Shown piece by piece: positions 34,987-61,809 of a stretch of 64,000 nucleotides of DNA. Position numbers and translations under genes: made by a program. The first letter of the stretch is position 1. Each line of letters begins with the position of its first letter. The stretch covers positions 52,837 to 116,836 of the forward strand of contig CAKOPN010000006.1 in assembly GCA_934100165.1 (NCBI GenBank). Reading direction: 5' to 3'. The notes under the pieces are model-generated. The model saw nothing but the letters and a program-made list of their open reading frames with translations, did not search any database and had not been told where the DNA came from. This DNA comes from an uncultured Bacilli bacterium. GTDB lineage: Bacteria; Bacillota_I; Bacilli_A; RF39; UBA660.

Positions 34987-35112
34987 AAAAAAACACCCAA
35001 GATAACTTTATCTTGAGTGACGAAGTTATCTCATAGTTCTAGCATTACCACCTAATTCAATAGGTTGGTGTGACTTCACAGGGCTAGTCCCTCCATCACT
35101 CTTTATAAGATG
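34987..35112 (-). promoter_or_regulatory. SAM-I (S-box) riboswitch with intrinsic terminator
   Basis: The minus strand reads CTTATAAAGAGTGATGGAGGGACTAGCCCTGTGAAGTCACACCAACC...GGTGGTAATGCTAGAAC...GAGATAAC (S-box core). It is followed by the terminator CACTCAAGATAAAGTTATCTTGGGTG + T7, directly upstream of metK. Confidence 0.88.
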
Positions 35113-36893: not shown

Positions 36894-36969
36894 TGGCAGG
36901 GGATGCAAGACTCGAACTCACGACACCCAGATTTGGAGTCTGGTGTTCTACCAACTGAACTAATCCCCT
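36894..36969 (-). tRNA. trnW: tRNA-Trp (anticodon CCA), encoded 3' CCA
   Basis: The reverse complement AGGGGATTAGTTCAGTTGGTAGAACACCAGACTCCAAATCTGGGTGTCGTGAGTTCGAGTCTTGCATCCCCTGCCA folds as a cloverleaf. It has a 7-bp acceptor stem, anticodon stem CCAGA/TCTGG, loop CTCCAAA and a TTCGAGT T-loop. Confidence 0.95.
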
Positions 36970-38069: not shown

Positions 38070-39217
38070 TTATCTTGGCAACAATAAAAGTTGATTTATT
38101 CTTAGAACATTGCTAGTTAAATTATTTAAACTTTTTATTGCATCTACAGTAGTATTGTTTTCTCTTGCTATAGAATATAATGTGTCATTTGGTTGTACAT
38201 AATAATTTATGTAAGAGTTTGTATTTGGAATATATAAGATTTCCCCTACCGTTAAAGTTGTTGATGGGAGTGAGTTATATTCCATTATTTCATTAACTGT
38301 AGTTCCATATTTTCTAGCAATTGAATAAAGCGTATCATTCCTTGCCACTACATGTTTTATATCATCTTGATTGACATTTCCTTGATTATTATTACCTATG
38401 TTACAACTAGCTGGAAGTAACAAGATATCCCCTCTTCTAATAATGGTAGTTTCTAGATTATTTAGTCTTATAATCTCATTAACATCTATGCTACAAGTAT
38501 TTGCAATTTTCCATAAAGAATCACCATCTTGAACCGTATAACTGATCGTTTCTGTGCCATTGCCTGGTGTTTCATTACTTATTGGTATCAAAAGTTGTTG
38601 GCCAATTACCAAATTTTGGGTATTTAGCTTGTTAAAATCTATGATATCTTCTGGTGTTATTCCATATTCTGTGGCAATTTTATATAATGTATCTCCTCTT
38701 TTTACTGTGTAGACTGTATAATTACTTGGATTTGGAATAATTATTTCTTCAGAATCTGGAAGGATTAGTTTTTGACCTATTTGAAGTGTGTTTGATGTTA
38801 AGTTATTTGCACTTTTTATGGCCTGAACAGTAGTGTTATACTTTTGTGCTATACTGTACAGACTATCTCCTCTTTGCACTACATAAATATTTTGACTATC
38901 ACCGTTAACAGGAACGTATGGTACACCAATGTAATTAGCAACTGCTTTTACAACTGCTTCACCATAATCTAGCAAATTGTTTTGAAGTTTATATAAGTCA
39001 TTTTTATTGTCTATAAAGCCATACTCAATTAGTAGAGACTCTGTATCGCCAGTTAATCTTTGAATAAAGTAATAATCCTTTGATGGATTTTCTGGTAATC
39101 TTCTTTGATAATATTTTCTACCCTTTTGACCAGCTTTTTCTAGTTCTTCTAGAATTGACTTTGCAAGAGTATCATCATTTCTCAATGCGTAAACAACTTC
39201 AGCGCCTTCACCACCTG
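38070..39217 (-). pseudogene. N-acetylmuramoyl-L-alanine amidase (Amidase_3) gene, 3' fragment: C-terminal half of the catalytic domain plus 5 LysM repeats
   Basis: The frame is open from 39245. It reads ...PGGEGAEVVYALRNDDTLAKSILEEL...YYFIQR...LLIEYGFIDN, followed by five LysM units (Y.V..GD.LY.IA....). It has no proper start; the track uses a TTG at 39185. It is the continuation of the fragment at 51973..52243. Confidence 0.85.
39209..39217. repeat. 9-bp direct repeat flanking the element (left copy; att core region)
   Basis: CACCACCTG is also present at 51973-51981. Confidence 0.85.
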
Positions 39218-39234
39218 GTGATGGGCATTGTGTA
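39218..39234. repeat. 17-bp terminal inverted repeat, left end
   Basis: GTGATGGGCATTGTGTA. The reverse complement of 51956-51972 is GTGATGGTCATTGTGTA, a 16/17 match. Confidence 0.85.
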
Positions 39235-39245
39235 GTTAATTTATT

Positions 39246-40511
39246 TTAAAAATGTTTATTAAATTTATAATCATTATAATTTAACATATTTGAAAAAATT
39301 ATATCAATTACAATATCATAAAGTATTTTTGTTCTTTTATAAATCCATTCAATATCAACATCATTTGCAAAATAATCTTTTGGATTTTTTTTACCTTTTA
39401 TTCTAGGATATATTATTTCTAATGTTTCATTGTCAATAAAATATCCATTGTGTGCATAATGATTTCTTAAACTTATTATCTCCCTAGTGTAATCTTCAAC
39501 ATTAACTATTATCTCTTTTTTATAGTTATTAATAAGGCTATATGAAATAAAATCATTATAATGTCCATTACATTTGTAATAACATTCAATAAATCTATAA
39601 AACATTAAAAAATTATCTTCAATATTTCTAGAAGTATTTAAAATTATATATGGGATATTTCTTATTTCACTTTTACTATTTCTATATGGTATTAAATTAT
39701 AACATTTTGGCAAAAAATTTTTTAACTCATCAGACACGCTATTAAGTACAAGCTTACTATTATAGTCTAATCTTTTCATAGGAATATTCAATTCGTAATA
39801 AAAATCATTAATAAATACTTGAACTTTATCTATTATCAATTTATCAGGCCTTAATAATTGTAAGTATATCATAATTTCTCTTATATAATCATATACATCA
39901 TCACAACTTATTGCATCTTCCAAAATCATTTCCAAATAACCCGTTAATTTGATAGATATATCTTTATTTTTATAGTTATGAATATGATTCCAATCATCTG
40001 ATAAAATTAATTTTTTTATATTATCTTTGTTTATGTCAATTGTTTGTTTTATTGTTTCAAATTGAAGTTTTATTACCAATTCATTTTCTATTGTTTCCTC
40101 AAATAAGCTTGGATGACCTATAAGTTCATTAATAAAACTACTATATAATTTTATTTTTTTAACATCTGGACTTTTAGGCAATTCACATAATTTGTTATAA
40201 TCCTTATGACTATAATAACACCTTGAAATAAATTTGGTTTTTGAACCACCATCTGGAGTCCCCCACACGTTAGTGTGCCCTGAATAACATGCATCTTTTA
40301 ACAAGTAATTTATTTTATTTTGATAATCAATAATTAGTATATCTCGCTCATTAAATTTTGTATTTATTCCAAAAGTTCTAACTCCATTATTATTTGGTTC
40401 AATTTCATCATCTATATCATAATTTACAATTACTTCTATTGCTTTGTCATTAATTAAATATTCACATTCAAAAGATTTATCATAATCCTTATTAAAAAAA
40501 CATACTGCCAT
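39246..40511 (-). CDS. HEPN-domain protein, ApeA-like candidate
   Basis: 421 aa. The C-terminal region has NFLMFYRFIECYY ... EIISLRNHYAHNGYF (Rx4H HEPN motif). Size and layout resemble ApeA-type single-protein defence nucleases. Not verified by HMM. Confidence 0.5.
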   Translation of the reverse strand: MAVCFFNKDYDKSFECEYLINDKAIEVIVNYDIDDEIEPNNNGVRTFGINTKFNERDILIIDYQNKINYLLKDACYSGHTNVWGTPDGGSKTKFISRCYYSHKDYNKLCELPKSPDVKKIKLYSSFINELIGHPSLFEETIENELVIKLQFETIKQTIDINKDNIKKLILSDDWNHIHNYKNKDISIKLTGYLEMILEDAISCDDVYDYIREIMIYLQLLRPDKLIIDKVQVFINDFYYELNIPMKRLDYNSKLVLNSVSDELKNFLPKCYNLIPYRNSKSEIRNIPYIILNTSRNIEDNFLMFYRFIECYYKCNGHYNDFISYSLINNYKKEIIVNVEDYTREIISLRNHYAHNGYFIDNETLEIIYPRIKGKKNPKDYFANDVDIEWIYKRTKILYDIVIDIIFSNMLNYNDYKFNKHF

Positions 40512-40531
40512 TATAATACCTCCAAAACTAC

Positions 40532-40729
40532 TTAAAATTCATCATCTATATCATAAATAATACCACTTGTAGGATGTTTTAAAATTTTTAATAATTCATT
40601 TCCTATTATTCTTATTTCAAAATAAAATACTATTGCATCTTCAGAATCAAATGTATTATCTCTATCAGGATCTGTATCATGTTTTGCATAATTTAATAAT
40701 CTTCTTAAATTGTTAAGTCTATCGTACAA
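40532..40729 (-). CDS. Small HEPN-motif ORF (possibly the 3' part of a frameshifted gene)
   Basis: LNNLRRLLNYAKHDT (Rx6H) followed by DSEDAIVFYFEIRIIGNELLKIL, a typical post-motif HEPN helix. There is no ATG; the track start is a TTG. The frame opens inside the end of the upstream ORF. Confidence 0.45.
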   Translation of the reverse strand: MYDRLNNLRRLLNYAKHDTDPDRDNTFDSEDAIVFYFEIRIIGNELLKILKHPTSGIIYDIDDEF

Positions 40730-40740
40730 ATCCCCATTAA

Positions 40741-41154
40741 TTATTCCTTCGTTATATAATGTTCAATATTTCTTCCAAACTCTCTTTTATTATAAATAAA
40801 TTTAATAAGTTTATTTTTAGATAAAGTTAATTTAACAAGTGTTTCTACATGTAATGCAGCATCTATTATTATATGTCTTGCTCTATTGCAACAATACATA
40901 TCACTTCTTGCATATTGAAGACTTCTGAATACATTTCTATAGTCACCTAATCTATTAAATGGATTTACTGTAGGATTTAATGGTGCAGCGTAACCACCAA
41001 ATCCACCTATTTTTTGATCAAATTCCCATATTTCTCTTTGCTTTTCCTTATTCATGTATTCCTTATCAATTATTTTTGCAAATCTCTTAAAAAGTGTTAT
41101 TTCTTCTTTAGTATAGTAGTTATTTACAATAATTCTAGTTTCTATTCTCATCAA
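40741..41154 (-). CDS. Hypothetical protein (possibly the 5' part of the same HEPN gene)
   Basis: 137-aa ORF, 6 nt downstream of the Fic gene. It ends ...RNIEHYITKE*, and the -1 frame continues as ...LYNEGIINGDLYDRLNNLRR.... Confidence 0.5.
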   Translation of the reverse strand: MMRIETRIIVNNYYTKEEITLFKRFAKIIDKEYMNKEKQREIWEFDQKIGGFGGYAAPLNPTVNPFNRLGDYRNVFRSLQYARSDMYCCNRARHIIIDAALHVETLVKLTLSKNKLIKFIYNKREFGRNIEHYITKE

Positions 41155-41160
41155 TGATTC

Positions 41161-42087
41161 CTATATTAATTCTAAATATTTCTTTAGCATTTCGACTTCT
41201 AACTTAGTAACCAATTTAATAAAATCAGTATAATTACCAGTTGTATGTGCCTTATCTAGTGCTTCATAATATTTTAATCTTGATTCTTTTTTAATAATTA
41301 CAGGATTATATCCATTGTTCATTAAAACCAAATTCATAAGTAATCTGGATGTTCTTCCATTACCATCTACAAACGGATGTATTTTTACTAATTCTCCATG
41401 CAATAACGCTGCTTGAATTATCGGATGATATTCACTCCAAGTATTATAAGTTAATATTAATTTTTCCATCAATTCAGGAATTTTTAAATAGTCTGGGGGA
41501 ATATGTGTTGCACCTTTAATAGTTACATTTTCTTTTCTATATCTCCCAGCATTTTCATTATCTATATCTTTTAAAATTAACTGATGGATATTTTTAATAT
41601 TCCATTCGCTAATTGGTTCATTATCTTTAACTAAATCATCTAAAAATAAAATTGCTTTTTCATGGTTAATTGCTTCTAAATGTTCTTTAATAGATTTTCC
41701 ACCAACAGTTATTCCTTCTAAAACAACTTGTGTTTCTCTTAATGTTAAAGTATTACCTTCTATTCCATTGCTATTATAAGTCCACTCTAAATTAATAGAT
41801 TCTCTTAATGATTTTAAAGTTTCTTTTGATATTGGTCTTTTACTATCTAAATCTTTTTTTAAGCCATCTACTTCATCAAAATAATTATCTTCTAAATCAA
41901 TAATAAATTTATTATCATCCGGTTTAATTATTCTTTTATCAACAGGTTTATCAGCATCAATAGGAATATTCCAACTATTTCCTACTTTAATGGCACCCTC
42001 AATTCTACCATCTTGCAGTAATTGTCTTATTCTCCTCTCGCTAATGTTCCATTTTTCAACAGCTTCTTTCGTAGTCATAAATTCCAT
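41161..42087 (-). CDS. Fic-family protein (AMPylase-type) with N-terminal HTH
   Basis: Canonical Fic motif HPFVDGNGRTSRLLMN. The class-II inhibitory-helix-like motif SNGIEGN fits (S/T)xxxE(G/N). N-terminal MerR/excisionase-like HTH (TTKEAVEKWNISERRIRQLLQDGRIEGAIKVGNSWNI). ATG at 42087 lies 6 nt after GAGGTG and downstream of the promoter. Confidence 0.9.
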   Translation of the reverse strand: MEFMTTKEAVEKWNISERRIRQLLQDGRIEGAIKVGNSWNIPIDADKPVDKRIIKPDDNKFIIDLEDNYFDEVDGLKKDLDSKRPISKETLKSLRESINLEWTYNSNGIEGNTLTLRETQVVLEGITVGGKSIKEHLEAINHEKAILFLDDLVKDNEPISEWNIKNIHQLILKDIDNENAGRYRKENVTIKGATHIPPDYLKIPELMEKLILTYNTWSEYHPIIQAALLHGELVKIHPFVDGNGRTSRLLMNLVLMNNGYNPVIIKKESRLKYYEALDKAHTTGNYTDFIKLVTKLEVEMLKKYLELI

Positions 42088-42106
42088 ACTATTCACCTCG
42101 TTTGTA

Positions 42107-42135
42107 ATTATACCGTATTCGGTATAATTAGTCAA
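42107..42135 (-). promoter_or_regulatory. Consensus promoter of the Fic-HEPN operon with an embedded 7-bp inverted repeat (candidate operator)
   Basis: On the minus strand: TTGACT (42130-42135), a 17-nt spacer, then TATAAT (42107-42112). The spacer/-10 region contains TATACCG-N4-CGGTATA (42109-42126). Confidence 0.75.
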
Positions 42136-42273
42136 TGTTTTTATTCCGAGGTTGGTACAACATTTTTATAAATTTCCAACATGTTGCACAAAGTTATTAA
42201 AATGAGACTCAATCAATTGCCTATATCTTTACAAAGTGTTAGTATATATAACTAAATTATGGAGGTATTTACT

Positions 42274-43242
42274 ATGAAATTTATTTTAAACAGTAACATT
42301 TTTGATACAGTGATTTCAATATTTTTGATTATTAATACAATAACAACAATAATTGTATATTTTTGTGAATCTAAGAACGAAATAAAAAATATTAAAATGG
42401 ATAATATGTTGAATAAATCAGAATTGTTTAAGTTAATCGTCAATATTATATTTATTATTATCTTTACATTCGTTTTGATTATTGTTGCAAACAAATGTAA
42501 AATAACATCTTATATTATTTTACTATATTATTTGAGCTTTATTTTGATATCATTAAAACTTTCAAAAAAGAATATCATAAATTTAACTACTGAAAATAAA
42601 ATGTCATATATTCAAACTACAATTTTATTTACTATTTTCTTTTCAAGTAAAGCGACCGCGATTTGTATAAATAGTTTTTCTACTTTTTCTCGCACTGCAA
42701 AAGAATATTTATTAATATTTTTCCTTATTTTTAAATTAGTATTTTTTATATATTGTACAATAATTAATTTTTCCATATTTATTTCTAATTTAAACATTAT
42801 ATTAAAAAAACAATTAAAATTTATCAAGACAATATTAATAAAAATTGAAAATAAATATTTTGAACTTAAATTATACAACTTTTATTTTTCAAGAAACAAC
42901 AATAGCAAACCTTTTTTTATTATAGATAGTATCATTTATATATTATTGTATCCATTTATAATGATATTATATTTTACATTTGCACTAGTTATCCTATCTA
43001 TAAAGTTTTTAATTAGGAAAATACTAGCATTATATACAAAAATAATTAATTATTTTAATAATAGTTCGAAAGTAATAAGAAAAACAATTAAAATATCTAC
43101 TATAATTTCATTACTTATTATTTATATAATTATAACTTACAATAACAACATTTTTTCTACAAACACAAAAGATATATTTACCCTTTTATCAACAGTTATA
43201 TTAATACCTTTAATTTATGATAGTATAAAATCTAATAAATAA
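42274..43242 (+). CDS. Polytopic membrane protein (about 8 TM), extremely AT-rich, unknown function
   Basis: ATG at 42274 lies 8 nt after GGAGG. The 322-aa protein is I/L/F/N/K-rich and consists of successive hydrophobic segments. It is transcribed divergently from the Fic operon. Confidence 0.6.
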   Translation: MKFILNSNIFDTVISIFLIINTITTIIVYFCESKNEIKNIKMDNMLNKSELFKLIVNIIFIIIFTFVLIIVANKCKITSYIILLYYLSFILISLKLSKKNIINLTTENKMSYIQTTILFTIFFSSKATAICINSFSTFSRTAKEYLLIFFLIFKLVFFIYCTIINFSIFISNLNIILKKQLKFIKTILIKIENKYFELKLYNFYFSRNNNSKPFFIIDSIIYILLYPFIMILYFTFALVILSIKFLIRKILALYTKIINYFNNSSKVIRKTIKISTIISLLIIYIIITYNNNIFSTNTKDIFTLLSTVILIPLIYDSIKSNK

Positions 43243-43283
43243 TTTAACTTCTGACCATATTATTCAAAAGTTATAATATTGTA

Positions 43284-43450
43284 TTTTTTCAACTTCTCCT
43301 CAAATTGGGGCAAAGTTGTTTAGCTTTACACTTTGGATCCTTTTGGACCGACGTTATTTAGTTTTCAACTTTGCGACAACTGGCCGAGAAGTTAGAATTT
43401 TGATGTTACGAGTTTTTATGTACTATTCTGTGCAAATGCACAGAATTTTT
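43284..43450 (+). ncRNA. Candidate structured small RNA / structured 3' UTR
   Basis: TATAAT at 43272-43277. Nested long-range stems pair AACTTCTC (43291-98) with GAGAAGTT (43386-93), and CAAAGTTG (43311-18) with CAACTTTG (43366-73). A terminator hairpin TTCTGTGCA-AA-TGCACAGAA (43426-45) plus T5 follows. This is a locally GC-richer, ORF-free stretch of about 200 bp. Confidence 0.35.
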
Positions 43451-45023
43451 AAATCATGAATCTATAGAAAATTTCAATATTTTTATCCTTATCAATTTCA
43501 ATTCTATCAATTAATGTTTGTAAAAGTTCTCTAGTAGGATTTTTTATATCTATTAATTCTCTTATTCTTTCTTCATATTCTTCTAATTCTTTAGTTTTAA
43601 CACTTTCTTTTTTAGTACCTTTATATTTTTCTAAATCCAATTGAGCTTTATTTAATAGACTTTCCGTTTCTTGAGATAATCTTTTATAAGTAACATCTGA
43701 TATATTACCTTTAAATTTATCTTCATATAACATATCAATTTTCGAGACATATTCTTTTATCTTCTCCTCTAAATATTTTATCTTTTCTTTATTATCTTCT
43801 TTCCTATTATTTTTAGTTGCTATTTCTTTAGATAATGATTTAGAATCAATTCGCTTAATATAATTTTTACAAGTCGTTCTTACTACTTCAAGTAGAGCTT
43901 CCTCTAATTTATCATATGGCATAAAATGCGGTTCACATAGTCTTCTTCTTGGATCTCTTGCATATTTATTACAATTAATAGTCCAATAATTATGATTTTT
44001 TCGGTACGTAATAGTTAATGTATTACCACATTCTTTACAAAATAGTAAATTTTCAAATAATCTTTTTTCTCTATTACTAACACTTACATTAGTCCTTTTG
44101 ACATTACCTTGTATTCTTTCAAAAGTTAGTTTATCAACTAATGGTTCATGTGTTTCAGAAACTATGTCCCAATTACTTTTTGGAAGTGCTTTTTTCTTTT
44201 TAGATTTATAATTTATTTTAGTCTGTGTACTTTGAACCATATCACCTGTATACATTCTATTTTTTAATATCTTTTTAACTGATGATATAGTCCATTGTTC
44301 ATTATATCTCATTTTAGAATTAAGATTTTTTCGTTTTAAACTACTAGGTGTTTTAATTTTATTATCATTTAAATATGAAGCTATATCAGATAATCCTACA
44401 CCACTGGCTGCCATTTCAAATATTTTTTTAACTACCGATGCATATTCAGGATCAGGTATTAAATGACCTTTTTCATTTGGATCTTTCATATATCCATAGC
44501 TTGGATTACTTCCAATAAACTTTCCTTTCTTTCTTTTATCATTTAAAACACTCCTAATTTTAATAGAATTTTGCCTACTATAATAATCGTTACAAGCAAT
44601 TATAAATGTTGATGAATCATTACTTGCTTGATTAATTGCACTATCATAGTTTTCTTGTAATGATATAAATCTTATATTATTTTCTGGGAAAAATCTTTCA
44701 ATATAATATCCTGTCATAACATGATCTCTACCTAATCTTGATAAATCTTTTACTATAACTAAATTTACCTTTTTACTTTTAATATCTTCAATCATTTTAG
44801 TAAATCCAGGTCTTTCAAAATTAGTACCAGAATATCCATCATCAACATATTCTCCAACAAATATAAAACCTTTTTCTTTTACAAAGTTCATTAATAAATT
44901 TCTTTGATTAGTAATACTTTCACTTTCTGATTCATAAGATTTTCCTTCATCTGCTTCAGATAATCTTATATATATGACCGCTCTATAAATATTATTTGGC
45001 ACTTGTATCAATCCGTTATACAT
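43449..45023 (-). CDS. Large serine recombinase (resolvase N-terminal domain + recombinase domain + zinc ribbon + coiled coil)
   Basis: AVIYIRLSEADEG...SITNQR (catalytic Ser context), VKDLSRLGRD, a central recombinase domain, CKECGNTL...C...C, and a C-terminal coiled coil. Confidence 0.92.
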   Translation of the reverse strand: MYNGLIQVPNNIYRAVIYIRLSEADEGKSYESESESITNQRNLLMNFVKEKGFIFVGEYVDDGYSGTNFERPGFTKMIEDIKSKKVNLVIVKDLSRLGRDHVMTGYYIERFFPENNIRFISLQENYDSAINQASNDSSTFIIACNDYYSRQNSIKIRSVLNDKRKKGKFIGSNPSYGYMKDPNEKGHLIPDPEYASVVKKIFEMAASGVGLSDIASYLNDNKIKTPSSLKRKNLNSKMRYNEQWTISSVKKILKNRMYTGDMVQSTQTKINYKSKKKKALPKSNWDIVSETHEPLVDKLTFERIQGNVKRTNVSVSNREKRLFENLLFCKECGNTLTITYRKNHNYWTINCNKYARDPRRRLCEPHFMPYDKLEEALLEVVRTTCKNYIKRIDSKSLSKEIATKNNRKEDNKEKIKYLEEKIKEYVSKIDMLYEDKFKGNISDVTYKRLSQETESLLNKAQLDLEKYKGTKKESVKTKELEEYEERIRELIDIKNPTRELLQTLIDRIEIDKDKNIEIFYRFMI

Positions 45024-45244: not shown

Positions 45245-45748
45245 TTATTCCTCCTCGTACATATCACTTAATAATTTTTTTAACTCTTTTTGTTTTTCAA
45301 TAGTTGCCTCATTTTTAGGTATTAACTTACCATGCCAGTATTCATTACCATCTTCATCTTTATAATAAATACTATCTTCTTTTTTATTTAATTTATTATA
45401 TTGTTTAAAGTTTTGTTTATAGCCTGTATTAAAATTATCTTTAACACTTTTTATTTTTAAATTTAAGAACTCTGATAATTTAATTATACGCTTAGAATTA
45501 TTTGTACCTTTATTATCATATTCAGTCTTAATATAACCAAAGGTGGCCAAATTACTTATACTTTTTGATATAGTTACTTGTGTTACATTATAAATATCAC
45601 AAAAATATCTATTAGTAGCCCAACAATAACCATTTTTCTTACAAAGACTTATTATATGAATTAATAATAGTCTTTCTAAAAATGTTAATCTATTATCTCT
45701 TAATACGGATTTTAAAATAAATACATTTATGAATTCTTCTTTATCCAT
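45245..45748 (-). CDS. Winged-helix/HTH DNA-binding protein (phage/plasmid replication- or regulator-like)
   Basis: LTFLERLLLIHIISLCKKNGYCWATNRYFCDIYNVTQVTISKSISNLATFGYIK. The ATG at 45748 is chosen because the longer track ORF runs through the upstream terminator hairpin. The start is uncertain. Confidence 0.6.
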   Translation of the reverse strand: MDKEEFINVFILKSVLRDNRLTFLERLLLIHIISLCKKNGYCWATNRYFCDIYNVTQVTISKSISNLATFGYIKTEYDNKGTNNSKRIIKLSEFLNLKIKSVKDNFNTGYKQNFKQYNKLNKKEDSIYYKDEDGNEYWHGKLIPKNEATIEKQKELKKLLSDMYEEE

Positions 45749-45860
45749 AATAATCAATATATAAGATATATCTTGAGATAATAAAAGTGCACTTTTAAAG
45801 ATTATTTTCCTAGGTGTTTTCATCTTATAACAAATTAAAATAAAAAGAAATTGTACAAAA

Positions 45861-45889
45861 CATGCAAAAGGAGTACATTTCTGTACTCC
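45861..45889 (-). terminator. Rho-independent terminator ending the ATPase-TOPRIM / Mrr-STAND operon
   Basis: GGAGTACA-GAAA-TGTACTCC 8-bp hairpin (45870-45889), followed by TTTTGCATGTTTTG on the minus strand. It lies 8 nt after the stop at 45898. Confidence 0.8.
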
Positions 45890-45897
45890 CAATTTAA

Positions 45898-48207
45898 TCA
45901 TTGTATATCATAATCTTGATTAAATATATCGTCAACATCAATTGTATTTGAATTTATCCTTTGAGAATAATCATAATCAATAGAATCCCCATACATTTCT
46001 TTCTTGTAATCATTTAAATCATCGTCTAATAACATTTCAATACATATATTATCAATTATATAATCATAATCTAACTCTACATTATTAAATTTATACCCTA
46101 AATTTCTAATATAATCAATGCATTCATTAGCTTTTTGTATTAATTCTTCTTCCACTTGCTGCTTAACTTCAAAAACGTAATTTATGTTTCCTTCTAATTC
46201 TTCATTATTATTTATAAATTTTATATCAGGTGATGTACTTCTAATTGTTTCATTAACAAAATCTTCTCCTAAGGAAATTAATTTATATTCAAGAGAAGAT
46301 GATAAAACACTAATTAAGTTTTTTTCTACTAATAAATTAGGCAATTCAATATCCGAATAATATTCTAATAATTCTTCAATATATTCATAATCTGAATCAA
46401 CTATTTTTTTTGAAAATTTTTCCACATCATTTATAATCGTCTCTAAAGAATAAAAAGCTCGGATACTTTTATTTAAAGCAAATTTAACTAAATAATTTCT
46501 TTTTAAATCATAATCAAAAAATGAAGAGACATAGTTTTTAATTTTTTTATCACAATACTTATGTTTAATAATAAATTCTATTTTCTTCTTTATTTCTAAA
46601 TTATCTTCACTCATAAATGAATTATAGTGATTATATGCTGATATTTTTTCAAAATTATCAATATTATTTTCTAAAAAATAAGGACATAATCCCGAAATTT
46701 TATCCAATTGTTCTACATATAAAGCAGTATCAAATATTTTTTTCAATTGAGCATTATTATCAAGCAAATAATTTTGTATATAATCATTGATGGATGGGTT
46801 TAATACACTTATATATTTTTTCTTGCCTAAAATAGCGATTCCTATCAGTGATTTACTCAATCTATTTATTGAATCATTAAAACTATAACGAGAAACGTCA
46901 TATCCATTTCTTATTAGAAAATTTACTGTTGATTTTTTTAAAACATCTATTGGAATATAATTATTTCCCAAAGTATATAATTGATACATTAATATCGCAT
47001 CACAAGGTTCAATCCTATCAAACTCACTTTTCCAAACATCCTTTGGGTTATTTAATGCATTTATAATGAAATCATAAAAATTTTCTGATTCTAACTTTTT
47101 CTCACGTATAACACACATTTCAATAATGCGTGTATTAAATGATTTATGCTCAATAATACTATTATAATTTTTATTTTTAATTATTGACTCATATGATTTT
47201 TTAGTAACACCGTTATGATACATTAAATTATATAAAATTCTTGCCCGATCTAATTTAGTTATTTCATTAACATCTATCAAACATTCTTTAATACCAATTT
47301 CGTCCATTAGCTTTTCAAATTCTTGTTTTTCATTCTTAGCTTTATTTAAAATTGTAATTCTACTATTTAGTATAATCTTTTTATTTTTATAAATTCTTGT
47401 TAATTTTAATAACGATTTTAATTCATTAATCAATTTATCACTAATTGATAAGGACGTTTGTCCTAAAAAATCATCTAAAAAAATTATTTCAGGATTATCA
47501 TTTTGTTGCACAGATTCTATCAACTTTGAAAAATCATTATTAGATACTGTTGTCAATCTATATTCTTTGTTACTTATCAAAAGATACCTTATCAACATTT
47601 TAGATGTCAATGTTTTTCCAATGCCAGGATCACCAATAAATAAAATAACTCCACTAGAATTTATAATATCGACTGCATCATAATATGCTTTAGTTTCTAC
47701 AAAATATTTTGTTTCATTTTCAAAATCATCTATCATGACTTTACTAATAGCATCAGAATACCTATTTAAATACAAATCTAATACTACAGCTGATGAAAGC
47801 CATAATTTATGATTCTTTTTTAAAACATCAATATTTGCATCATCTATTAAAAAATCATCGATATCATTTTTTCCTATAACATAAGAATAATTTTTCATGT
47901 AGTCTCTAAAAATATCATATATATTCTTAGTAACCGTTTCACTAATTTCAGCAGTAGTTAGTAAATAATATGAATCAAAAGACTGTTTTTTTATTTTTTC
48001 TAATTCTTTTTTGCAAGCATCAACTAATTTTGAAGAATCTTTATATCTTTTACATTGACAAATAACTTTACCATCAAAACTTATTAAATCAATGCCATCA
48101 TCTTTACCAGGACCAAATCTTTTAAATTTTAAATTTAATCTTTTTTCCATAAAATCCAGGCAAAACTTTTCAAACTCTATTGGATCTAAATTTAAAATAT
48201 TAAACAT
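45898..48207 (-). CDS. Mrr-like PD-(D/E)xK nuclease fused to a STAND-type P-loop NTPase with a helical C-terminal region of about 500 aa
   Basis: N-terminus: FEKFCLDFM...GPGKDDGIDLISFDGKVICQCKRY (Mrr_cat pattern). Walker A ILFIGDPGIGKTLTS (aa 188-202), Walker B EIIFLDDFLG (aa 240-249). The C-terminal remainder is long and alpha-helical looking. Confidence 0.75.
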   Translation of the reverse strand: MFNILNLDPIEFEKFCLDFMEKRLNLKFKRFGPGKDDGIDLISFDGKVICQCKRYKDSSKLVDACKKELEKIKKQSFDSYYLLTTAEISETVTKNIYDIFRDYMKNYSYVIGKNDIDDFLIDDANIDVLKKNHKLWLSSAVVLDLYLNRYSDAISKVMIDDFENETKYFVETKAYYDAVDIINSSGVILFIGDPGIGKTLTSKMLIRYLLISNKEYRLTTVSNNDFSKLIESVQQNDNPEIIFLDDFLGQTSLSISDKLINELKSLLKLTRIYKNKKIILNSRITILNKAKNEKQEFEKLMDEIGIKECLIDVNEITKLDRARILYNLMYHNGVTKKSYESIIKNKNYNSIIEHKSFNTRIIEMCVIREKKLESENFYDFIINALNNPKDVWKSEFDRIEPCDAILMYQLYTLGNNYIPIDVLKKSTVNFLIRNGYDVSRYSFNDSINRLSKSLIGIAILGKKKYISVLNPSINDYIQNYLLDNNAQLKKIFDTALYVEQLDKISGLCPYFLENNIDNFEKISAYNHYNSFMSEDNLEIKKKIEFIIKHKYCDKKIKNYVSSFFDYDLKRNYLVKFALNKSIRAFYSLETIINDVEKFSKKIVDSDYEYIEELLEYYSDIELPNLLVEKNLISVLSSSLEYKLISLGEDFVNETIRSTSPDIKFINNNEELEGNINYVFEVKQQVEEELIQKANECIDYIRNLGYKFNNVELDYDYIIDNICIEMLLDDDLNDYKKEMYGDSIDYDYSQRINSNTIDVDDIFNQDYDIQ

Positions 48208-48208
48208 T

Positions 48209-49390
48209 TTATTTTACCTCCTCAACTAAATATTTATATTTCTCATAATCTTTAAAATTGTCTAAATATTCAATAAAATCAGGAGCATTTTCTTTTTTCC
48301 CAGTATAACCAATTTCACCCTCTAATATTGTATTTGATTCCAAATATATATTACATTTTTTTATTTCAATATTAATTGCTTTATTATTTTCATCCTTTTC
48401 ATTATCCTTATCAAATAATGGAATAACTTCTATATCAAGATTTTGAAATATTTTTATAAAAGGTATAAAGTGTGGCTTTCCATAACATTGAAAAATACTA
48501 TATTGTGTATATTGTTTATTATAATTAACTAACAATTTTTTAATAAACAATTCATCATTTATACCTTCTACCATATAAATTTTTTTTGAAAACAACGAAT
48601 TCAAGAATTCCTTTTTATGAAGTTCTATAATATTTCTTTTTAACGAATCTACAGAGAAATAAGATTTTGATTTATTATTCAAATTTTCAACATGAATATC
48701 ACTAGGGAGTAATATAGCACTTTTAAAATCAATTTTTTTTGGTTCTCCAAAATTTGGATCATTAAATATAAATAAATTTTCAAAATCAATATCTAATAAA
48801 TTTAATAAATCTGGAGAATGTGTAGCTACACAAATATCTTTCGTTTTACTTAAATCATTTATAAGACCTGCAGTAACATGCAACAACGATGGATGAGTAT
48901 GATTTTCTGGTTCATCTAAATAAATAAACTGCTTATGACTCTTTTGTATTAATTTTAATAAAAATTGTAATTTCTGACCACTTCCCATGTTATTTTTTAA
49001 ATCATCTGAATTTATTTTTACTATTTTTTTATACTCTTTTGTCGGAGTTGTAGAAATAACGTTTTTTTCTCTCTTTTGATTATTAAGGCTTAAAACCTCT
49101 TCCATTATTTCATTATAAATTTGTTGGTTCTCCTCAATACTTTTATCCAAAGCACTTTCATAATTTTTTCTAGCATTAGAAATCTCTTCATTCTCTAACA
49201 ACTCACTAATCAAATATTCCATTACAAAAGAGCTATTAACCGTATCTTTCATTTCATCAACAAATACTATTTCGGAATTTAATAATAGAATATCTTTTCT
49301 TTCTTTATCCTGTTTTTTTAATTCTTCTATTTCTTTATTTATCGCAAATGTTTTACCATAACCATTTGGACCAATATAAATTTTTAACAT
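48209..49390 (-). CDS. ABC/AAA_21-type ATPase fused to a TOPRIM domain (compact OLD-family-like / DUF4435-like protein)
   Basis: Walker A GPNGYGKT (aa 7-14), signature-like MGSGQKLQF, Walker B IYLDEPENHTHP, VATHSP, then TOPRIM-like IYMVEGINDE (aa 271-280) and LFDKDNE (aa 325-331). Its stop lies 1 nt before the downstream ATG. Confidence 0.7.
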   Translation of the reverse strand: MLKIYIGPNGYGKTFAINKEIEELKKQDKERKDILLLNSEIVFVDEMKDTVNSSFVMEYLISELLENEEISNARKNYESALDKSIEENQQIYNEIMEEVLSLNNQKREKNVISTTPTKEYKKIVKINSDDLKNNMGSGQKLQFLLKLIQKSHKQFIYLDEPENHTHPSLLHVTAGLINDLSKTKDICVATHSPDLLNLLDIDFENLFIFNDPNFGEPKKIDFKSAILLPSDIHVENLNNKSKSYFSVDSLKRNIIELHKKEFLNSLFSKKIYMVEGINDELFIKKLLVNYNKQYTQYSIFQCYGKPHFIPFIKIFQNLDIEVIPLFDKDNEKDENNKAINIEIKKCNIYLESNTILEGEIGYTGKKENAPDFIEYLDNFKDYEKYKYLVEEVK

Positions 49391-50084: not shown

Positions 50085-51191
50085 TTACAAAGTATAGTTA
50101 CTTATTAATTGGAGTATAATCTGATTTCTTTGCATAACTAAACTTTCCGGTTCGTAAAAGCACATAAACATTTCATTTTTATCTACCGATTTTTTATATA
50201 ATTTCAAAAATAAAATTAAGTTTTTTCTTTGAAAATCAGTCATGTTTTCTAACAAACAAATTATATTTTGATAAGAATTTTGATCCAAAAAATCAAAAAA
50301 TTTATTCATAAAACCAATCATAACATCAGATAATTGTAATCGAATATTTTTCTTAGAATCTTCGAAATTATAATTAGTTATATCGCTATTTTTTAATTTA
50401 TCTTGAATTTCCGAAATCTCATCAAAGCAATGAAACGATTTATAAAATTTAACACACATATCTAAGTTCAACCCTGAATAACCATCAATTATTACTTTTT
50501 CAGAATTATTTTCTAAAAAAAATAATTGCTCCTTTTTTGAAAATTTTTTAAATAATTGTCTACAAGTTTCAAGACAAAATAACATATTAGTATCTGTTTC
50601 ATTAATCCAATTATACATTTTTTTGCAAAAAAACTCAATGCAATCTCCAGTAACATTGGGATAATTTGATTCTTCTAAAATATGTATAAACCTATTTATA
50701 TCTGTTTTTACATAAAAATATAATTCATCTTTCATTATTGGTGCTAAAAAAGAATATGTTTCTTTATATTTATCTAACAATAAAGAATCAACTATTTCTA
50801 TTATTACATCATAAAGATTATCAAAAGTAGAACAATGTAAATATATATCATTATCATACATAAATTCTAATATTTTATTTAAGTTTTTTCCTCTCAGGCA
50901 ATTTATAAATGTATCTGTTTTTCCTGTATTTATTTGTTTAAATTTTAATTCACCTTGTACATTTAATTTTTTTAATAAGTCGTCCCAATCAACCATATCA
51001 TCTTTATTTTTATCTAAAGTTAATCCACCTAATCTATATTTTTGTAAAAAATTATCAATATTTAAAATTTTGTTATCTTTAAACTGAAATTTAATAAAAT
51101 TATTTGTTTCATCATAATAAAAATTATTAACCACATTAGTATCATAACCTTGCTCAGTATAGTATTCTTCTAGCAATGCACTAAGACTCAT
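50085..51191 (-). CDS. Hypothetical protein, DUF3800-like candidate
   Basis: ATG at 51191 lies 9 nt after GAGGAG. N-terminal FYYDETNNF and C-terminal FEDSKKNIRLQLSDVMIGF resemble the DUF3800 D-E...DS..LQ.aD signature. Not verified by HMM. Confidence 0.4.
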   Translation of the reverse strand: MSLSALLEEYYTEQGYDTNVVNNFYYDETNNFIKFQFKDNKILNIDNFLQKYRLGGLTLDKNKDDMVDWDDLLKKLNVQGELKFKQINTGKTDTFINCLRGKNLNKILEFMYDNDIYLHCSTFDNLYDVIIEIVDSLLLDKYKETYSFLAPIMKDELYFYVKTDINRFIHILEESNYPNVTGDCIEFFCKKMYNWINETDTNMLFCLETCRQLFKKFSKKEQLFFLENNSEKVIIDGYSGLNLDMCVKFYKSFHCFDEISEIQDKLKNSDITNYNFEDSKKNIRLQLSDVMIGFMNKFFDFLDQNSYQNIICLLENMTDFQRKNLILFLKLYKKSVDKNEMFMCFYEPESLVMQRNQIILQLISNYTL

Positions 51192-51257
51192 AACAATCAA
51201 CTCCTCACATATATTATAACATTAAAAACACTACCATTTCTGATAGCGTTAATTTTT

Positions 51258-51557
51258 TTAATAATATCTTTTTAATCTTAATGGATTACTATTCTTCACT
51301 ACTAAATTATATTTTATTTTTAATATTTCTTTTATCTTAGGTATAAGTCTACTAATATCACACCTACAATTAAATATATCTACAGCAGAGTTAATATGAT
51401 TTATTAAATTACATTCTGATAAACAATGTCTACTATATACATTTGCTAAATAGAATGCAACTACATCTGGTATAACATAATTATTTAAATAATTATTAAC
51501 ATTGTTATAGAAAGGTAAATATATTTCTTCAAATTCTTTATTAGTTATATCACACAT
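51258..51557 (-). CDS. Hypothetical small protein
   Basis: 99-aa ORF overlapping the end of the tnpV-like gene by 8 nt. No recognisable motif. Confidence 0.5.
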   Translation of the reverse strand: MCDITNKEFEEIYLPFYNNVNNYLNNYVIPDVVAFYLANVYSRHCLSECNLINHINSAVDIFNCRCDISRLIPKIKEILKIKYNLVVKNSNPLRLKRYY

Positions 51558-51912
51558 AGATATACTCCTTTAAAATTATTTCTTCGACTTTATTTTTTAT
51601 ATTATTCATTTTACCTATCCATAACATTTGACTACTACTTTTTAATTCTTCAGTTATATTTTCTTTTTCAACAAGTTCTTTAATTAAACTTTGTTCTTTA
51701 TCAATAAGTGTAATATCAATATCATTCAAATACTCATTCAACTTATCTTTCATAAGTAGCTCAGTATATAATACTCTTTTATTCTTCTTTAAATACTCCA
51801 ATTTAAGTAATCCGTACTTTCCTAAATTAAATCTTTCTTTATTTTCTAATTTCAAATCTGGTAATAAATAATCACCAATTCTAGTGTAACTAATGCTCAT
51901 AATTTTCCTCAT
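51550..51912 (-). CDS. tnpV: TnpV-like protein (Tn4451-family accessory protein)
   Basis: SISYTRIGDYLLPDLKL...LGKYGLLKLEYLKKNKRVLYTELLMKDKLNEYLNDID...SSSQMLWIGKMNNIKNKVEEIILKEYIY matches my recollection of the TnpV family pattern. It is the first gene inside the right end of the element. The start may instead be ATG at 51900. Confidence 0.65.
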   Translation of the reverse strand: MRKIMSISYTRIGDYLLPDLKLENKERFNLGKYGLLKLEYLKKNKRVLYTELLMKDKLNEYLNDIDITLIDKEQSLIKELVEKENITEELKSSSQMLWIGKMNNIKNKVEEIILKEYIYV

Positions 51913-51955
51913 TTCTTTCTATTTTATTTGGTTTTAATTGTTATACATATTTCGT

Positions 51956-51972
51956 TACACAATGACCATCAC
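51956..51972. repeat. 17-bp terminal inverted repeat, right end
   Basis: TACACAATGACCATCAC is the reverse complement (16/17) of 39218-39234. Confidence 0.85.
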
Positions 51973-51981
51973 CACCACCTG
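51973..51981. repeat. 9-bp direct repeat flanking the element (right copy)
   Basis: CACCACCTG is identical to 39209-39217. Confidence 0.85.
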
Positions 51982-60531: not shown

Positions 60532-60559
60532 AATCAAGGAAATTATTTCTTCCTTGATT
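60532..60559. terminator. Bidirectional terminator between the convergent FemAB genes
   Basis: 10-bp stem AATCAAGGAA/TTCCTTGATT flanked by an A-run and a T-run. It overlaps the stop of the minus-strand gene. Confidence 0.7.
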
Positions 60560-61808: not shown

Positions 61809-61809
61809 T

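What the first reader, a model, noticed from the sequence alone, without database searches (positions are those of the whole stretch)
39246..42135. Fic (HTH-fused) / small HEPN / ApeA-like HEPN operon at the left end of the element
What the sequence shows: four ORFs are packed with gaps of 6, 11 and 20 nt behind a consensus promoter (TTGACT-17-TATAAT).
- An HTH-Fic protein with the canonical HPFVDGNGRTSR motif and an SNGIEGN inhibitory-type motif.
- A 137-aa ORF.
- A 65-aa ORF with an Rx6H HEPN motif.
- A 421-aa protein ending in LRNHYAH (Rx4H).

Established knowledge: Fic toxins and HEPN RNases are recurrent toxin/abortive-infection modules, and ApeA is a single-gene HEPN defence protein.

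Inference: a co-transcribed Fic + double-HEPN arrangement could be a composite toxin-antitoxin or abortive-infection module. I do not recognise this combination as a described system.
Basis: partly seen in the sequence, partly recalled or inferred. Interest (0 to 1): 0.7.

Follow-up and report, generated by a model that had tools for sequence, protein, structure and literature searches.

The report
Defence-gene stack behind a Fic gene
At one end of a 12.8-kb mobile element that splits a cell-wall amidase gene, a Fic enzyme, a frameshift-broken HEPN-fold gene and an ApeA-like RNase sit in one operon. About 150 related loci show these are separately swappable anti-phage cargo genes, not a new composite system.

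Summary
The ORFs, motifs and promoter are real, but there are three genes, not four. The 137-aa and 65-aa ORFs are halves of one ~206-aa gene ("p206") split by a 1-nt deletion. That allele occurs on 18 independent contigs.

- **Fic:** a 308-aa class-II, SoFic-like enzyme with an N-terminal HTH. The TTG "start" at 42135 is the -35 box.
- **421-aa protein:** a beta-rich ApeA_NTD1 domain plus a helical domain with an invariant RNxxxH. The ApeA_NTD1 profile matches homologues significantly; the HEPN_Apea profile matches only below threshold.
- **p206:** a small unannotated family with a HEPN-like predicted fold. Its motif arginine is not conserved.

The "composite Fic + double-HEPN system" reading is not supported.
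- 77 of the 80 closest Fic loci lack both partners.
- About 24 of 30 ApeA-like loci lack p206 and Fic.
- p206 also occurs alone or beside TIR, DUF4238, type I R-M or an unknown gene.

The slot just after the Fic stop codon is a defence-cassette hot spot in this element family, holding Dodola, Gabija, OLD and others. The genes are most likely independent abortive-infection modules read from one Fic promoter, which carries a conserved palindromic operator.

Verdict: new members of known kinds; moderate interest.

The parts
42107..42135 (-). Sigma-70-type promoter TTGACT-17-TATAAT of the operon
   Evidence: Best match in 39000-43500 at 11/12. The -10 box ends 20 nt before the ATG at 42087. TTGAC[AT]-N17-TATAAT is kept in 38/50 related Fic loci.
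42105..42130 (.). Perfect 11-4-11 palindrome TAATTATACCG-AATA-CGGTATAATTA overlapping the -10 box; candidate operator
   Evidence: the repeat finder reports 100% complementary arms. The core TACCG-N3-5-CGGTA lies ~40 nt upstream of the Fic ATG in 68/79 related loci. Those account for 68 of only 88 such palindromes in 590 kb. Binding by the HTH of Fic is inferred, not shown.
42143..42157 (-). Degenerate second operator-like site TACCAACCTCGGAAT upstream of the -35 box
   Evidence: Relatives carry TACCGATAACGGAAT here. 26/79 loci have two sites, at -40 and at -70/-75.
41161..42087 (-). HTH-Fic, 308 aa: N-terminal HTH_17-like domain, inhibitory motif S106xxxE110G, Fic core HPFVDGNGRTSR (aa 237-248)
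   Evidence: Pfam Fic E=2.5e-25; HTH_17 E=4.3e-5, sub-threshold. PADLOC SoFic E=1.4e-35 over profile positions 56-270 of 361; PDC-S04 E=6.6e-36. Motif positions.
40532..41154 (-). p206 pseudogene: one ~206-aa HEPN-fold gene split by a 1-nt deletion between 40761 and 40760 into the '137-aa' and '65-aa' ORFs
   Evidence: Relatives have a single ORF and the deletion is visible in the DNA alignment. The same allele is on 18 contigs. AF2 gives pLDDT 89, all helical. Top Foldseek hits are HEPN proteins: 2hsb prob 1.0, TM-score 0.71 on the target, plus HepT; E-values are 0.14-2. DUF4145 scores E=0.004-0.008, sub-threshold.
39246..40511 (-). ApeA-like protein, 421 aa: beta-rich ApeA_NTD1-type domain (aa 1-245) plus helical HEPN-type domain (aa ~263-409) with R349-N350-x3-H354
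   Evidence: AF2 gives pLDDT 87.6, pTM 0.83. ApeA_NTD1 matches 13/36 homologues, best 1.4e-7; L027 scores 28.5 bits against a cut-off of 25.5. HEPN_Apea is sub-threshold in 3/26 distant members, in the same register in the two hits checked. R, N, H and Y are invariant in the distant alignment.
39209..39234 (.). Left end of the mobile element: 8-bp repeat AGGTGGTG (39209-39216) plus 18-nt terminal inverted repeat (39217-39234)
   Evidence: Read. The other end carries the same 8-mer (51973-51980) and the inverted repeat (51956-51973, 17/18 match). Joining the flanks restores ...HINAGGG|EGAEVVY... of Amidase_3. The N-terminal half is at 51941-52243 and the C-terminal half plus LysM at 38070-39185.
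43449..45023 (-). Large serine recombinase of the element (context, not part of the operon)
   Evidence: Pfam Resolvase, Recombinase and Zn_ribbon_recom, plus a weak DUF4368 hit. Homologues lie next to Fic, p206 or ApeA-like in L001-L006, L047, L052 and L059-L084.

Best explanation
The locus is the cargo end of a ~12.8-kb serine-recombinase/TnpV element inserted in an Amidase_3-LysM gene. It holds three genes, which are separately mobile toxin/defence modules stacked in one transcription unit, not one system.

1. HTH-Fic is a class-II (SoFic-like) self-inhibited AMP-transferase. It is the conserved head gene of the slot. Its promoter carries a conserved dyad operator, so it is probably autoregulated through its own HTH (inferred).
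2. p206 is a DUF4145-like HEPN-fold protein. It occurs in varied defence contexts and is inactivated here by a frameshift.
3. The 421-aa protein has an ApeA_NTD1 domain plus a HEPN domain. It most likely acts alone as a dimeric or oligomeric HEPN RNase. On infection it would cleave tRNA or other RNA and abort the infection, by analogy with characterised ApeA (inferred).

Shown here: the gene structures, domain and fold assignments, the frameshift, the element ends, and the lack of obligate linkage. Inferred: the enzymatic activities, the anti-phage role and the autoregulation.
For: Independence of the genes:
- The 80 closest Fic loci (at least 80% identity) comprise 77 without p206 or ApeA-like and 3 with only a 48-aa p206 remnant.
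- The gene after Fic falls into more than 150 clusters. These include DolA/DolB (E=8e-63 and 3e-116), GajA (8e-177), Old/AriA-like and a NERD-UvrD helicase (3e-178).
- Of 32 ApeA-like genome loci, only 6 have p206 and 2 have Fic. The others sit beside a KAP NTPase, ThsA_Macro, UDG or GIY-YIG gene, or directly after the recombinase.
- p206 is followed by ApeA-like, an unknown 256-aa gene, DUF4238-Pers, TIR_2, Bro-N or type I R-M. It also stands alone.
- Identity is mosaic: L005 is 97% (Fic) and 94% (p206) identical to the window but only 56% in ApeA-like.
- p206 is frameshifted on 18 contigs while Fic and ApeA-like stay intact.

Domain evidence.

Element. Its other cargo matches PDC-S73 (E=1.6e-101) and PDC-S51 (E=2.3e-76) and includes an OLD-like ATPase-TOPRIM.

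Known ApeA biology: a single-protein abortive-infection HEPN tRNase (bioRxiv 10.64898/2026.01.26.701840).
Against: - The three genes share one promoter, have 6-20 nt gaps and no internal terminator.
- The trio recurs in L005 and L010.
- The Fic-p206 pair recurs with a different third gene (L037-39, L046, L048, L139-141).
- The p206-ApeA-like pair recurs without Fic (L001-3, L006, L040). Within one ApeA-like clade every included member has p206 upstream.
- HEPN_Apea profile support is only sub-threshold, and the window protein has no profile hit of its own.
- No activity was tested.
Confidence: 0.68

Rival explanations
1. One reading: Fic, p206 and the ApeA-like protein work together as one toxin-antitoxin or abortive-infection module.
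For: There is one promoter, the gaps are tight and the genes share a strand. The same trio is present in L005/L043 and L010/L044. A third locus, L045, has Fic and p206, but the ApeA-like match after them is only 44 aa.
Against: 77/80 Fic loci lack both partners. About 24/30 ApeA-like loci lack both. p206 is a circulating pseudogene next to intact neighbours. ApeA-like identity (56%) is decoupled from Fic and p206 identity (97% and 94%) in L005.
Confidence: 0.07
2. p206 is a generic partner (regulator, sensor or antitoxin) for whichever effector lies just downstream: ApeA-like HEPN, TIR, DUF4238 or the 256-aa protein. This would make two-gene systems with swappable effectors.
For: In most loci p206 lies 8-31 nt upstream of a same-strand gene of variable type. 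The window/L001/L040 ApeA-like clade is uniformly p206-linked in the tree. Divergence of p206 (56%) and ApeA-like (52%) in L040 is comparable.
Against: - p206 stands alone, or downstream of other genes, in L033, L034 and L056.
- ApeA-like is mostly solo. L004, the closest relative of the L001 type at 66%, lacks p206.
- A distant homologue of the 256-aa gene is solo.
- DUF4238-Pers matches a PADLOC model in its own right.
- p206 decays repeatedly through frameshifts and remnants while the downstream gene stays intact.
Confidence: 0.15
3. Fic and p206 form an AMPylation-controlled pair analogous to MntA-HepT (type VII TA). Fic would AMPylate the HEPN-fold protein near its NxAKH-D-T motif.
For: The gene order is transferase then HEPN, with a 6-8 nt gap. 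The pair is conserved at 80% (Fic) and 71% (p206) identity in a second context, L037-39. p206's fold neighbours are HepT toxins, including AMPylated forms. Thr at H+2 is invariant, where HepT has the AMPylated Tyr of RX4HXY (PMC7641770).
Against: Most Fic loci lack p206 and most p206 lineages lack Fic. The catalytic Arg of p206 is not conserved, so p206 may not be a toxin at all. The Fic carries its own inhibitory helix motif.
Confidence: 0.06

Closest known systems
ApeA (Gao et al. 2020; mechanism in bioRxiv 10.64898/2026.01.26.701840) and the ApeA-NTD1 + HEPN(Apea) architecture of Anantharaman et al. 2013 (PMC3710099)
   Same: It is a single polypeptide with a C-terminal helical domain carrying an invariant RNxxxH. 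It usually occurs as a lone gene in defence islands. [quoted passage not shown]
   Different: - Characterised E. coli ApeA proteins are ~580 aa and predominantly alpha-helical (N-terminal, Mid and HEPN domains). This protein is 421 aa with a beta-rich N-terminal half.
- It has no PADLOC hit at E<=1 other than PDC-M09A at E=0.061.
- HEPN_Apea is only sub-threshold.
- The family is narrow: 203 representatives in 1.84 billion, from gut Bacillota.
SoFic / class II Fic AMP-transferases (Engel et al. 2012, cited from memory; PMC12249575)
   Same: It has the canonical HPFxDGNGRxxR motif and an N-terminal inhibitory motif SxxxEG. It gives a strong PADLOC SoFic/PDC-S04 match over the Fic core and lies in a defence island.
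   Different: It has an N-terminal HTH_17-like domain and lacks the SoFic C-terminal domain; the profile is covered only over positions 56-270 of 361. No AS1-like 47-aa downstream gene was identified. Its promoter carries a conserved palindrome.
DUF4145-type HEPN proteins of R-M and defence operons (PMC3710099)
   Same: p206 is small and helical. It gives weak DUF4145 hits across the motif helix and has a HEPN-like predicted fold. It occurs beside type I R-M, helicase-nuclease and other defence genes.
   Different: The motif arginine is not conserved. There is an extra ~65-aa N-terminal helical part with an invariant GGxGGYAAPLNP...RNVFRSLQYAR block. No Pfam or PADLOC model recognises it above threshold.
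HepT/MntA type VII toxin-antitoxin (PMC7641770)
   Same: A nucleotidyl-transferring enzyme gene lies directly upstream of a HEPN-fold gene, and a hydroxyl residue sits two positions after the motif His.
   Different: The transferase is Fic, not MNT. The residue is Thr, not Tyr. The pair is not obligately linked.
Defence-cargo hot spots of integrative elements; Tn4451-like TnpX/TnpV elements (from memory)
   Same: A conserved recombinase and backbone genes flank a hypervariable slot filled with alternative defence systems. The element has a large serine recombinase and TnpV.
   Different: The slot begins at the stop codon of an HTH-Fic gene, and the element interrupts an amidase gene. Mobility was not tested.

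Membership tests
Fic/DOC (PF02661) | Profile match and HxFx(D/E)GNGRxxR motif | tested here: met
   E=2.5e-25, 89.6 bits against a cut-off of 24. HPFVDGNGRTSR lies at aa 237-248.
Class II Fic / SoFic | Inhibitory (S/T)xxxE(G/N) motif N-terminal to the Fic core in the same chain | tested here: met
   S106-N-G-I-E110-G111 lies 130 residues before the Fic motif. This is a sequence motif only; the helix was not modelled.
Class II Fic / SoFic | SoFic two-domain architecture with a C-terminal domain needed for toxicity (PMC12249575) | tested here: not met
   The PADLOC SoFic profile is matched only over positions 56-270 of 361. The protein ends about 60 aa after the Fic motif and has an N-terminal HTH instead.
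ApeA-NTD1 + HEPN(Apea) proteins (PF18862 + PF18739) | N-terminal ~300-aa mostly-beta ApeA_NTD1 domain | tested here: met
   The window protein itself has no hit. 13/36 homologues match, best E=1.4e-7. L027 scores 28.5 bits against a cut-off of 25.5 over profile positions 7-254 of 271. The AF2 model has a beta-rich region at aa 1-245.
ApeA-NTD1 + HEPN(Apea) proteins (PF18862 + PF18739) | C-terminal HEPN_Apea profile match | tested here: inconclusive
   Only 3/26 distant members hit, at E=0.004-0.05 and below the 24.4-bit cut-off. In the two hits examined, the motif Arg falls near model position 90.
HEPN superfamily (421-aa protein) | Rx4-6H motif on a helix of a helical bundle, conserved across the family | tested here: met
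   R349, N350 and H354 lie on predicted helix 338-355. R, N, H and Y are invariant among members of about 20% identity. Foldseek did not report HEPN hits for the whole model; its top hits were to the N-terminal domain.
Experimentally characterised ApeA (Gao_Ape; Ec1-4ApeA) | Predominantly alpha-helical N-terminal and Mid domains, ~580 aa; match to the defence-finder ApeA model | tested here: not met
   The N-terminal half is beta-rich and the protein is 421 aa. PADLOC returned only PDC-M09A at E=0.061 and no ApeA match. There was no PADLOC hit for L027, P0293 or P0253.
Experimentally characterised ApeA | tRNA anticodon-loop cleavage, doughnut-shaped oligomer, ligand-activated pocket | not testable with these tools
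   Needs biochemistry or cryo-EM.
HEPN superfamily / DUF4145 (p206) | HEPN four-helix fold | tested here: inconclusive
   The model has pLDDT 89. About 30 of the top 50 Foldseek hits are HEPN proteins; 2hsb has prob 1.0, TM-score 0.71 on the target and rmsd 3.2. All E-values are 0.14 or higher. DUF4145 scores E=0.004-0.008, below the 23.1-bit cut-off.
HEPN superfamily / DUF4145 (p206) | Conserved catalytic Rx4-6H | tested here: not met
   His is invariant, but the Arg position is R, K, I or T across 31 members.
HepT/MntA type VII TA | MNT partner with GSX10DXD and HEPN with RX4HXY | tested here: not met
   There is no MNT gene. p206 has H-D-T rather than H-x-Y (PMC7641770).
Obligate multi-gene defence or TA system (Fic + p206 + ApeA-like) | Components co-occur across genomes beyond shared element ancestry | tested here: not met
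   Fic occurs without partners in 77/80 loci. ApeA-like occurs without partners in about 24/30 loci. p206 has varied neighbours.
Large-serine-recombinase integrative element | Recombinase gene, defined ends, interrupted target gene restored on excision | tested here: met
   Resolvase, Recombinase and Zn_ribbon_recom domains are present. TnpV scores E=2.7e-36. The ends carry an 8-bp direct repeat and 18-nt inverted repeats, and both Amidase_3 halves flank the element. The C-terminal amidase half follows the cargo in at least 13 related loci. Mobility itself was not tested.

The most novel reading that the evidence does not exclude
The HTH-Fic gene is the conserved, autoregulated 'gatekeeper' of a defence-cassette slot, rather than just another toxin. 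Its promoter and dyad operator (kept in 68/79 loci) would drive whichever defence cassette is recombined in 9-31 nt after its stop codon. Cassettes seen there include ApeA-like, p206, Dodola, Gabija and OLD. The Fic domain would act as the switch that de-represses, or directly modifies, the cargo on infection. This would be a Fic-based counterpart of BrxR/CapW-type defence regulators (comparison from memory). A sharper sub-variant is that Fic AMPylates HEPN cargo near the catalytic motif, as MntA does to HepT.
Probability: 0.15. Interest if true: 0.65.

Novelty: new member of a known kind. Interest (0 to 1): 0.35.

Why it matters
- **For annotation:** the '65-aa HEPN' ORF should not be called a gene, and the trio should not be catalogued as a new multi-gene system.
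- **Two candidate defence families:** the ApeA_NTD1-HEPN proteins of gut Bacillota (about 200 representative clusters) and the ~206-aa HEPN-fold p206 family (82 clusters). PADLOC 2.0 matches neither above threshold. Both sit in a hot spot that also holds Dodola, Gabija and OLD-type systems, which makes them candidates for phage-challenge tests.
- **A discovery handle:** the hot spot is anchored on an HTH-Fic gene with a conserved operator. It lies in a serine-recombinase element that targets an amidase gene in uncultured gut Bacilli. More than 150 cargo clusters were seen after the Fic gene, and most were not annotated here.

Tried and rejected
- **Pfam and PADLOC on the window's 421-aa protein:** no significant hit. 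Homologues were needed.
- **Profile search of PDB sequences:** nothing for A1; only chance vinculin hits at E>=0.25 for p206.
- **Foldseek of the full ApeA-like model against PDB:** only weak Hcp/tail-tube-like hits to the beta domain (E>=0.011). No HEPN hit was listed and no ApeA structure is in the library. The C-terminal domain could not be submitted alone.
- **tblastn of the 421-aa protein against plasmid and phage collections:** no match.
- **hhalign of the ApeA-like family against the p206 family:** unrelated, probability 0.1%.
- **137 + 65-aa ORFs as a sequencing error:** rejected, because the allele is on 18 independent contigs.
- **Programmed frameshifting:** judged unlikely. There is no slippery heptamer at GAACATTAT. 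The second lineage's deletion is at a different base, in an A-run 14 nt upstream. The downstream piece has only a TTG start with a badly spaced GGGGA.
- **p206 as an AS1-like anti-SoFic antitoxin (PMC12249575):** rejected. AS1 is 47 aa, and 77/80 Fic loci lack p206.
- **Promoter enrichment statistics:** promoter-like sites are no more frequent than in shuffled sequence.
- **Rfam:** nothing in 39-43.5 kb.
- **Third homologous-protein search:** not used. Precomputed Pfam labels of close relatives already lacked PF18739, so little gain was expected.


Full report
**1. Observation**

Reading the sequence shows TTGACT-17-TATAAT at 42135-42107. This is the best promoter match in 39000-43500, at 11/12.

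The TTG that opens the 324-aa ORF is the -35 hexamer itself. The real start is the ATG at 42087, preceded by GAGGTG. The Fic protein is therefore 308 aa (41161-42087).

Promoter-like matches are not enriched in this AT-rich DNA. The region has 43 sites against 44 in shuffles. The whole window has 7 sites at 11/12 or better, against 6.9 +/- 2.5 in simulations. The case for this promoter rests on two things: its position, and its conservation in 38/50 related loci.

**2. Three genes, not four**

In related loci L005, L010, L001 and L002, the '137-aa' and '65-aa' ORFs form one uninterrupted ~206-aa ORF. The DNA alignment shows a single-base deletion in the window (GAACAATTA to GAAC-ATTA, between 40761 and 40760). 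I call the gene p206.

The split allele is not an assembly error. The identical 136/137-aa product, followed by the 65-aa and 421-aa ORFs, is on 18 contigs from independent samples.

The gene decays in several other ways.
- A second lineage (P0188, at least 6 contigs) has its own 1-nt deletion, in an A-run 14 nt upstream.
- A third allele has a deletion near the 3' end, in L037.
- Only 48-aa or 58-aa remnants of p206 remain in L061, L066, L080 and L058.

**3. Fic**

Pfam Fic scores E=2.5e-25. HTH_17 scores E=4.3e-5, below its cut-off, and other excisionase/MerR-type HTH models give weaker hits.

The motif HPFVDGNGRTSR lies at aa 237-248. S106-x3-E110-G111 fits the (S/T)xxxE(G/N) inhibitory motif of class II Fic proteins (classification as summarised in PMC12249575).

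PADLOC gives SoFic at E=1.4e-35 and PDC-S04 at E=6.6e-36. The SoFic profile is covered only over positions 56-270 of 361, so the SoFic C-terminal domain is absent and an N-terminal HTH is present instead.

**4. The 421-aa protein**

Homologues rescue the call.
- 13/36 family members match ApeA_NTD1, best E=1.4e-7.
- L027 scores 28.5 bits, above the 25.5-bit cut-off, over profile positions 7-254 of 271.
- The AF2 model (pLDDT 87.6, pTM 0.83) has a beta-rich N-terminal half (aa 1-245) and a helical C-terminal domain. R349-N350-x3-H354 lies on helix 338-355.
- In an alignment of distant members (~20% identity) the only invariant residues are one Glu and the R, N, H and Y of the motif.
- HEPN_Apea itself matches only below threshold, in 3/26 distant members (E=0.004-0.05). 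In the two hits examined, the motif Arg falls near model position 90.

Foldseek against PDB found only weak Hcp/tube-like similarity for the beta domain, and the library holds no ApeA entry.

The family is small: 203 representatives at E<=1e-3 among 1.84 billion proteins. It is absent from the plasmid and phage collections.

The experimentally studied ApeA proteins are ~580 aa, predominantly helical, single-protein abortive-infection tRNases that form doughnut-shaped oligomers (bioRxiv 10.64898/2026.01.26.701840). The window protein shares the HEPN logic and the single-gene habit. It does not share their N-terminal architecture.

**5. p206**

Only 82 clusters exist in 5.8 billion, almost all 204-206 aa, and none carries a Pfam label.

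AF2 gives an all-helical model with pLDDT 89. Its Foldseek neighbours are overwhelmingly HEPN proteins: AF_0298 (2hsb; prob 1.0, TM-score 0.71 on the target), HepT toxins, HI0074 and MtlR. E-values are only 0.14-2.

DUF4145, a HEPN family (PMC3710099), matches at E=0.004-0.008 across the frameshift junction.

The motif His and the block NxAKHDTD are conserved, but the 'Rx6H' arginine is R, K, I or T across members. So p206 has a HEPN-like predicted fold, but its catalytic competence is doubtful.

**6. Are the genes linked?**

*ApeA-like.* Among 32 genome loci, 6 have p206 upstream and 2 also have Fic. Two follow the serine recombinase directly. The rest sit beside a KAP NTPase, ThsA_Macro, UDG, GIY-YIG or other genes.

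*Fic.* Among the 80 closest loci (at least 80% identity), 77 have neither partner and 3 have a p206 remnant.

*p206.* The downstream neighbour varies widely.
- ApeA-like: window, L005, L010, L001-3, L006, L040.
- An unknown 256-aa protein: L037-39, L046, L048, L139-141.
- DUF4238-Pers: L047, L052.
- A TIR_2 protein: L055.
- A Bro-N protein: L054.
- Type I R-M: L036.
- In L033, L034 and L056 p206 has no same-strand downstream partner.

A distant homologue of the 256-aa gene is also solo.

Identity is mosaic. L005 is 97% (Fic) and 94% (p206) identical to the window but only 56% in ApeA-like.

Against full independence, an NJ tree places the ApeA-likes of the window, L001-3, L006 and L040 in one clade, and all of them have p206 upstream. 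However L004, which is closest to L001 at 66%, lacks p206. The p206-ApeA-like association is therefore recurrent but facultative.

**7. What the slot is**

The first gene after Fic falls into more than 150 sequence clusters. It often starts 9-31 nt after the Fic stop. In at least 13 loci the cargo is followed by the C-terminal half of the amidase gene.

Sampled cargo includes the following.
- Dodola DolA (E=8e-63) and DolB (E=3e-116).
- GajA (E=8e-177).
- An Old/AriA-like ATPase.
- A NERD-UvrD helicase (E=3e-178).
- A Ppl/PDC-M49A-like protein.
- A TPR protein with a weak HEPN_RiboL-PSP match.

In the window the element runs from about 39.21 to 51.98 kb.
- Its ends carry the 8-bp direct repeat AGGTGGTG and 18-nt inverted repeats matching at 17/18 positions.
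- Joining the flanks restores the Amidase_3 sequence HINAGGG|EGAEVVY. The two amidase halves lie at 51941-52243 and 38070-39185.
- The rest of the element encodes a large serine recombinase, TnpV, an HTH_36 protein, a Mrr-nSTAND3 protein (PDC-S73, E=1.6e-101), an OLD-like ATPase-TOPRIM and PDC-S51 (E=2.3e-76).

The finding therefore sits in a defence-cargo hot spot of a mobile element.

**8. Regulation**

The -10 box is embedded in a perfect 11-4-11 palindrome at 42105-42130. Its core, TACCG-N3-5-CGGTA, lies ~40 nt upstream of the Fic ATG in 68/79 related loci. Those are 68 of only 88 such palindromes in 590 kb. In 26 loci there is a second site at -70/-75.

This is a strong operator candidate. 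That the HTH of Fic binds it is an inference. No terminator-like site lies within the operon, so the cargo is probably co-transcribed with Fic.

**9. Mechanism and verdict**

Best explanation (confidence ~0.68): three independent modules are stacked in one transcription unit.
- An autoregulated, self-inhibited SoFic-like AMP-transferase.
- A decayed DUF4145-like HEPN-fold gene.
- A self-sufficient ApeA_NTD1-HEPN RNase that probably aborts infection by RNA cleavage.

Rivals:
- The full composite system (~0.07).
- p206 as a generic partner of swappable effectors (~0.15).
- A Fic-HEPN AMPylation pair analogous to MntA-HepT (~0.06). This rests on fold neighbours that include AMPylated HepT and on an invariant Thr where HepT has its AMPylated Tyr (PMC7641770).

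The most novel reading not excluded is that HTH-Fic is a conserved regulator of the cassette slot.

Overall these are new members of known kinds in an instructive genomic setting: interest 0.35.

Noticed in passing
window 39209-39234 and 51956-51980; amidase halves 38070-39185(-) and 51941-52243(-): A ~12.8-kb serine-recombinase/TnpV element interrupts an Amidase_3-LysM gene. Its ends carry the 8-bp direct repeat AGGTGGTG and 18-nt inverted repeats (17/18). Excision would restore HINAGGG|EGAEVVY. The same amidase C-terminal half follows the cargo in at least 13 related loci, so the target site is conserved.
   Followed up: partly
L059-L138 (Fic loci), first gene after the Fic stop: The slot 9-31 nt downstream of the HTH-Fic stop codon is hypervariable, with more than 150 clusters in ~70 loci. 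It holds Dodola, GajA, Old/AriA-like, NERD-UvrD helicase and Ppl-like genes and many unannotated ones. It could serve as a discovery handle for new defence genes.
   Followed up: partly
window 42105-42130 and 42143-42157; same position in 68/79 related loci: A conserved dyad TACCG-N3-5-CGGTA overlaps the -10 box of the Fic promoter, and 26 loci have a second copy upstream of the -35 box. It is probably an operator. The binding protein is unknown; the HTH of Fic is suspected.
   Followed up: partly
window 40760/40761; L139 ~4395; L037 ~5595; L061, L066, L080, L058: p206 is repeatedly inactivated. Two independent 1-nt deletions lie within 15 nt of each other in different lineages, each seen in several samples. 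A third frameshift lies near the 3' end, and several loci keep only short remnants. This suggests the gene is costly or dispensable.
   Followed up: partly
window 45898-48207(-), 48209-49390(-), 50085-51200(-), 51550-51912(-), 45245-45901(-): Other element cargo: a Mrr_cat + nSTAND3 protein (PADLOC PDC-S73, E=1.6e-101), an OLD-like ABC ATPase-TOPRIM (GajA/PDC-M01A-like), PDC-S51 (E=2.3e-76), TnpV and an HTH_36 protein.
   Followed up: partly
L037:5638-6408, L046, L048, L139-L141, L147; distant copy L148:2779-3657: An unannotated 256-aa protein family replaces ApeA-like after Fic-p206 in a second lineage, next to Gabija or AAA_13 genes. It has no Pfam or PADLOC hit, and only 4 genome loci were found.
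   Followed up: partly
window 39246-40511(-), aa 1-245 of the model: The ApeA_NTD1 beta domain gives weak but consistent Foldseek hits to Hcp/tail-tube-like proteins (prob up to 1.0, TM-score 0.4-0.58 on the target, E>=0.011). The meaning is unknown.
   Followed up: no
window 42259-43242(+): A 327-aa multi-pass membrane ORF with no family hit lies between the recombinase and Fic on the opposite strand. It is conserved (64-86%) in L062, L065, L070 and L080.
   Followed up: no
window 35028-35111(-), 23403-23501(-), 36897-36969(-): A SAM riboswitch, an S10-Clostridia ribosomal leader and tRNA-Trp lie in the chromosomal flank. A ribosomal-protein operon occupies roughly 9-25 kb.
   Followed up: no
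window 60543-63459(-): Two further large ORFs (421 and 549 aa) lie here. Near position 61752 they share a 38-nt 71% match with the serine recombinase gene at 44145, so a second recombinase pair or element may be present. This was not examined.
   Followed up: no
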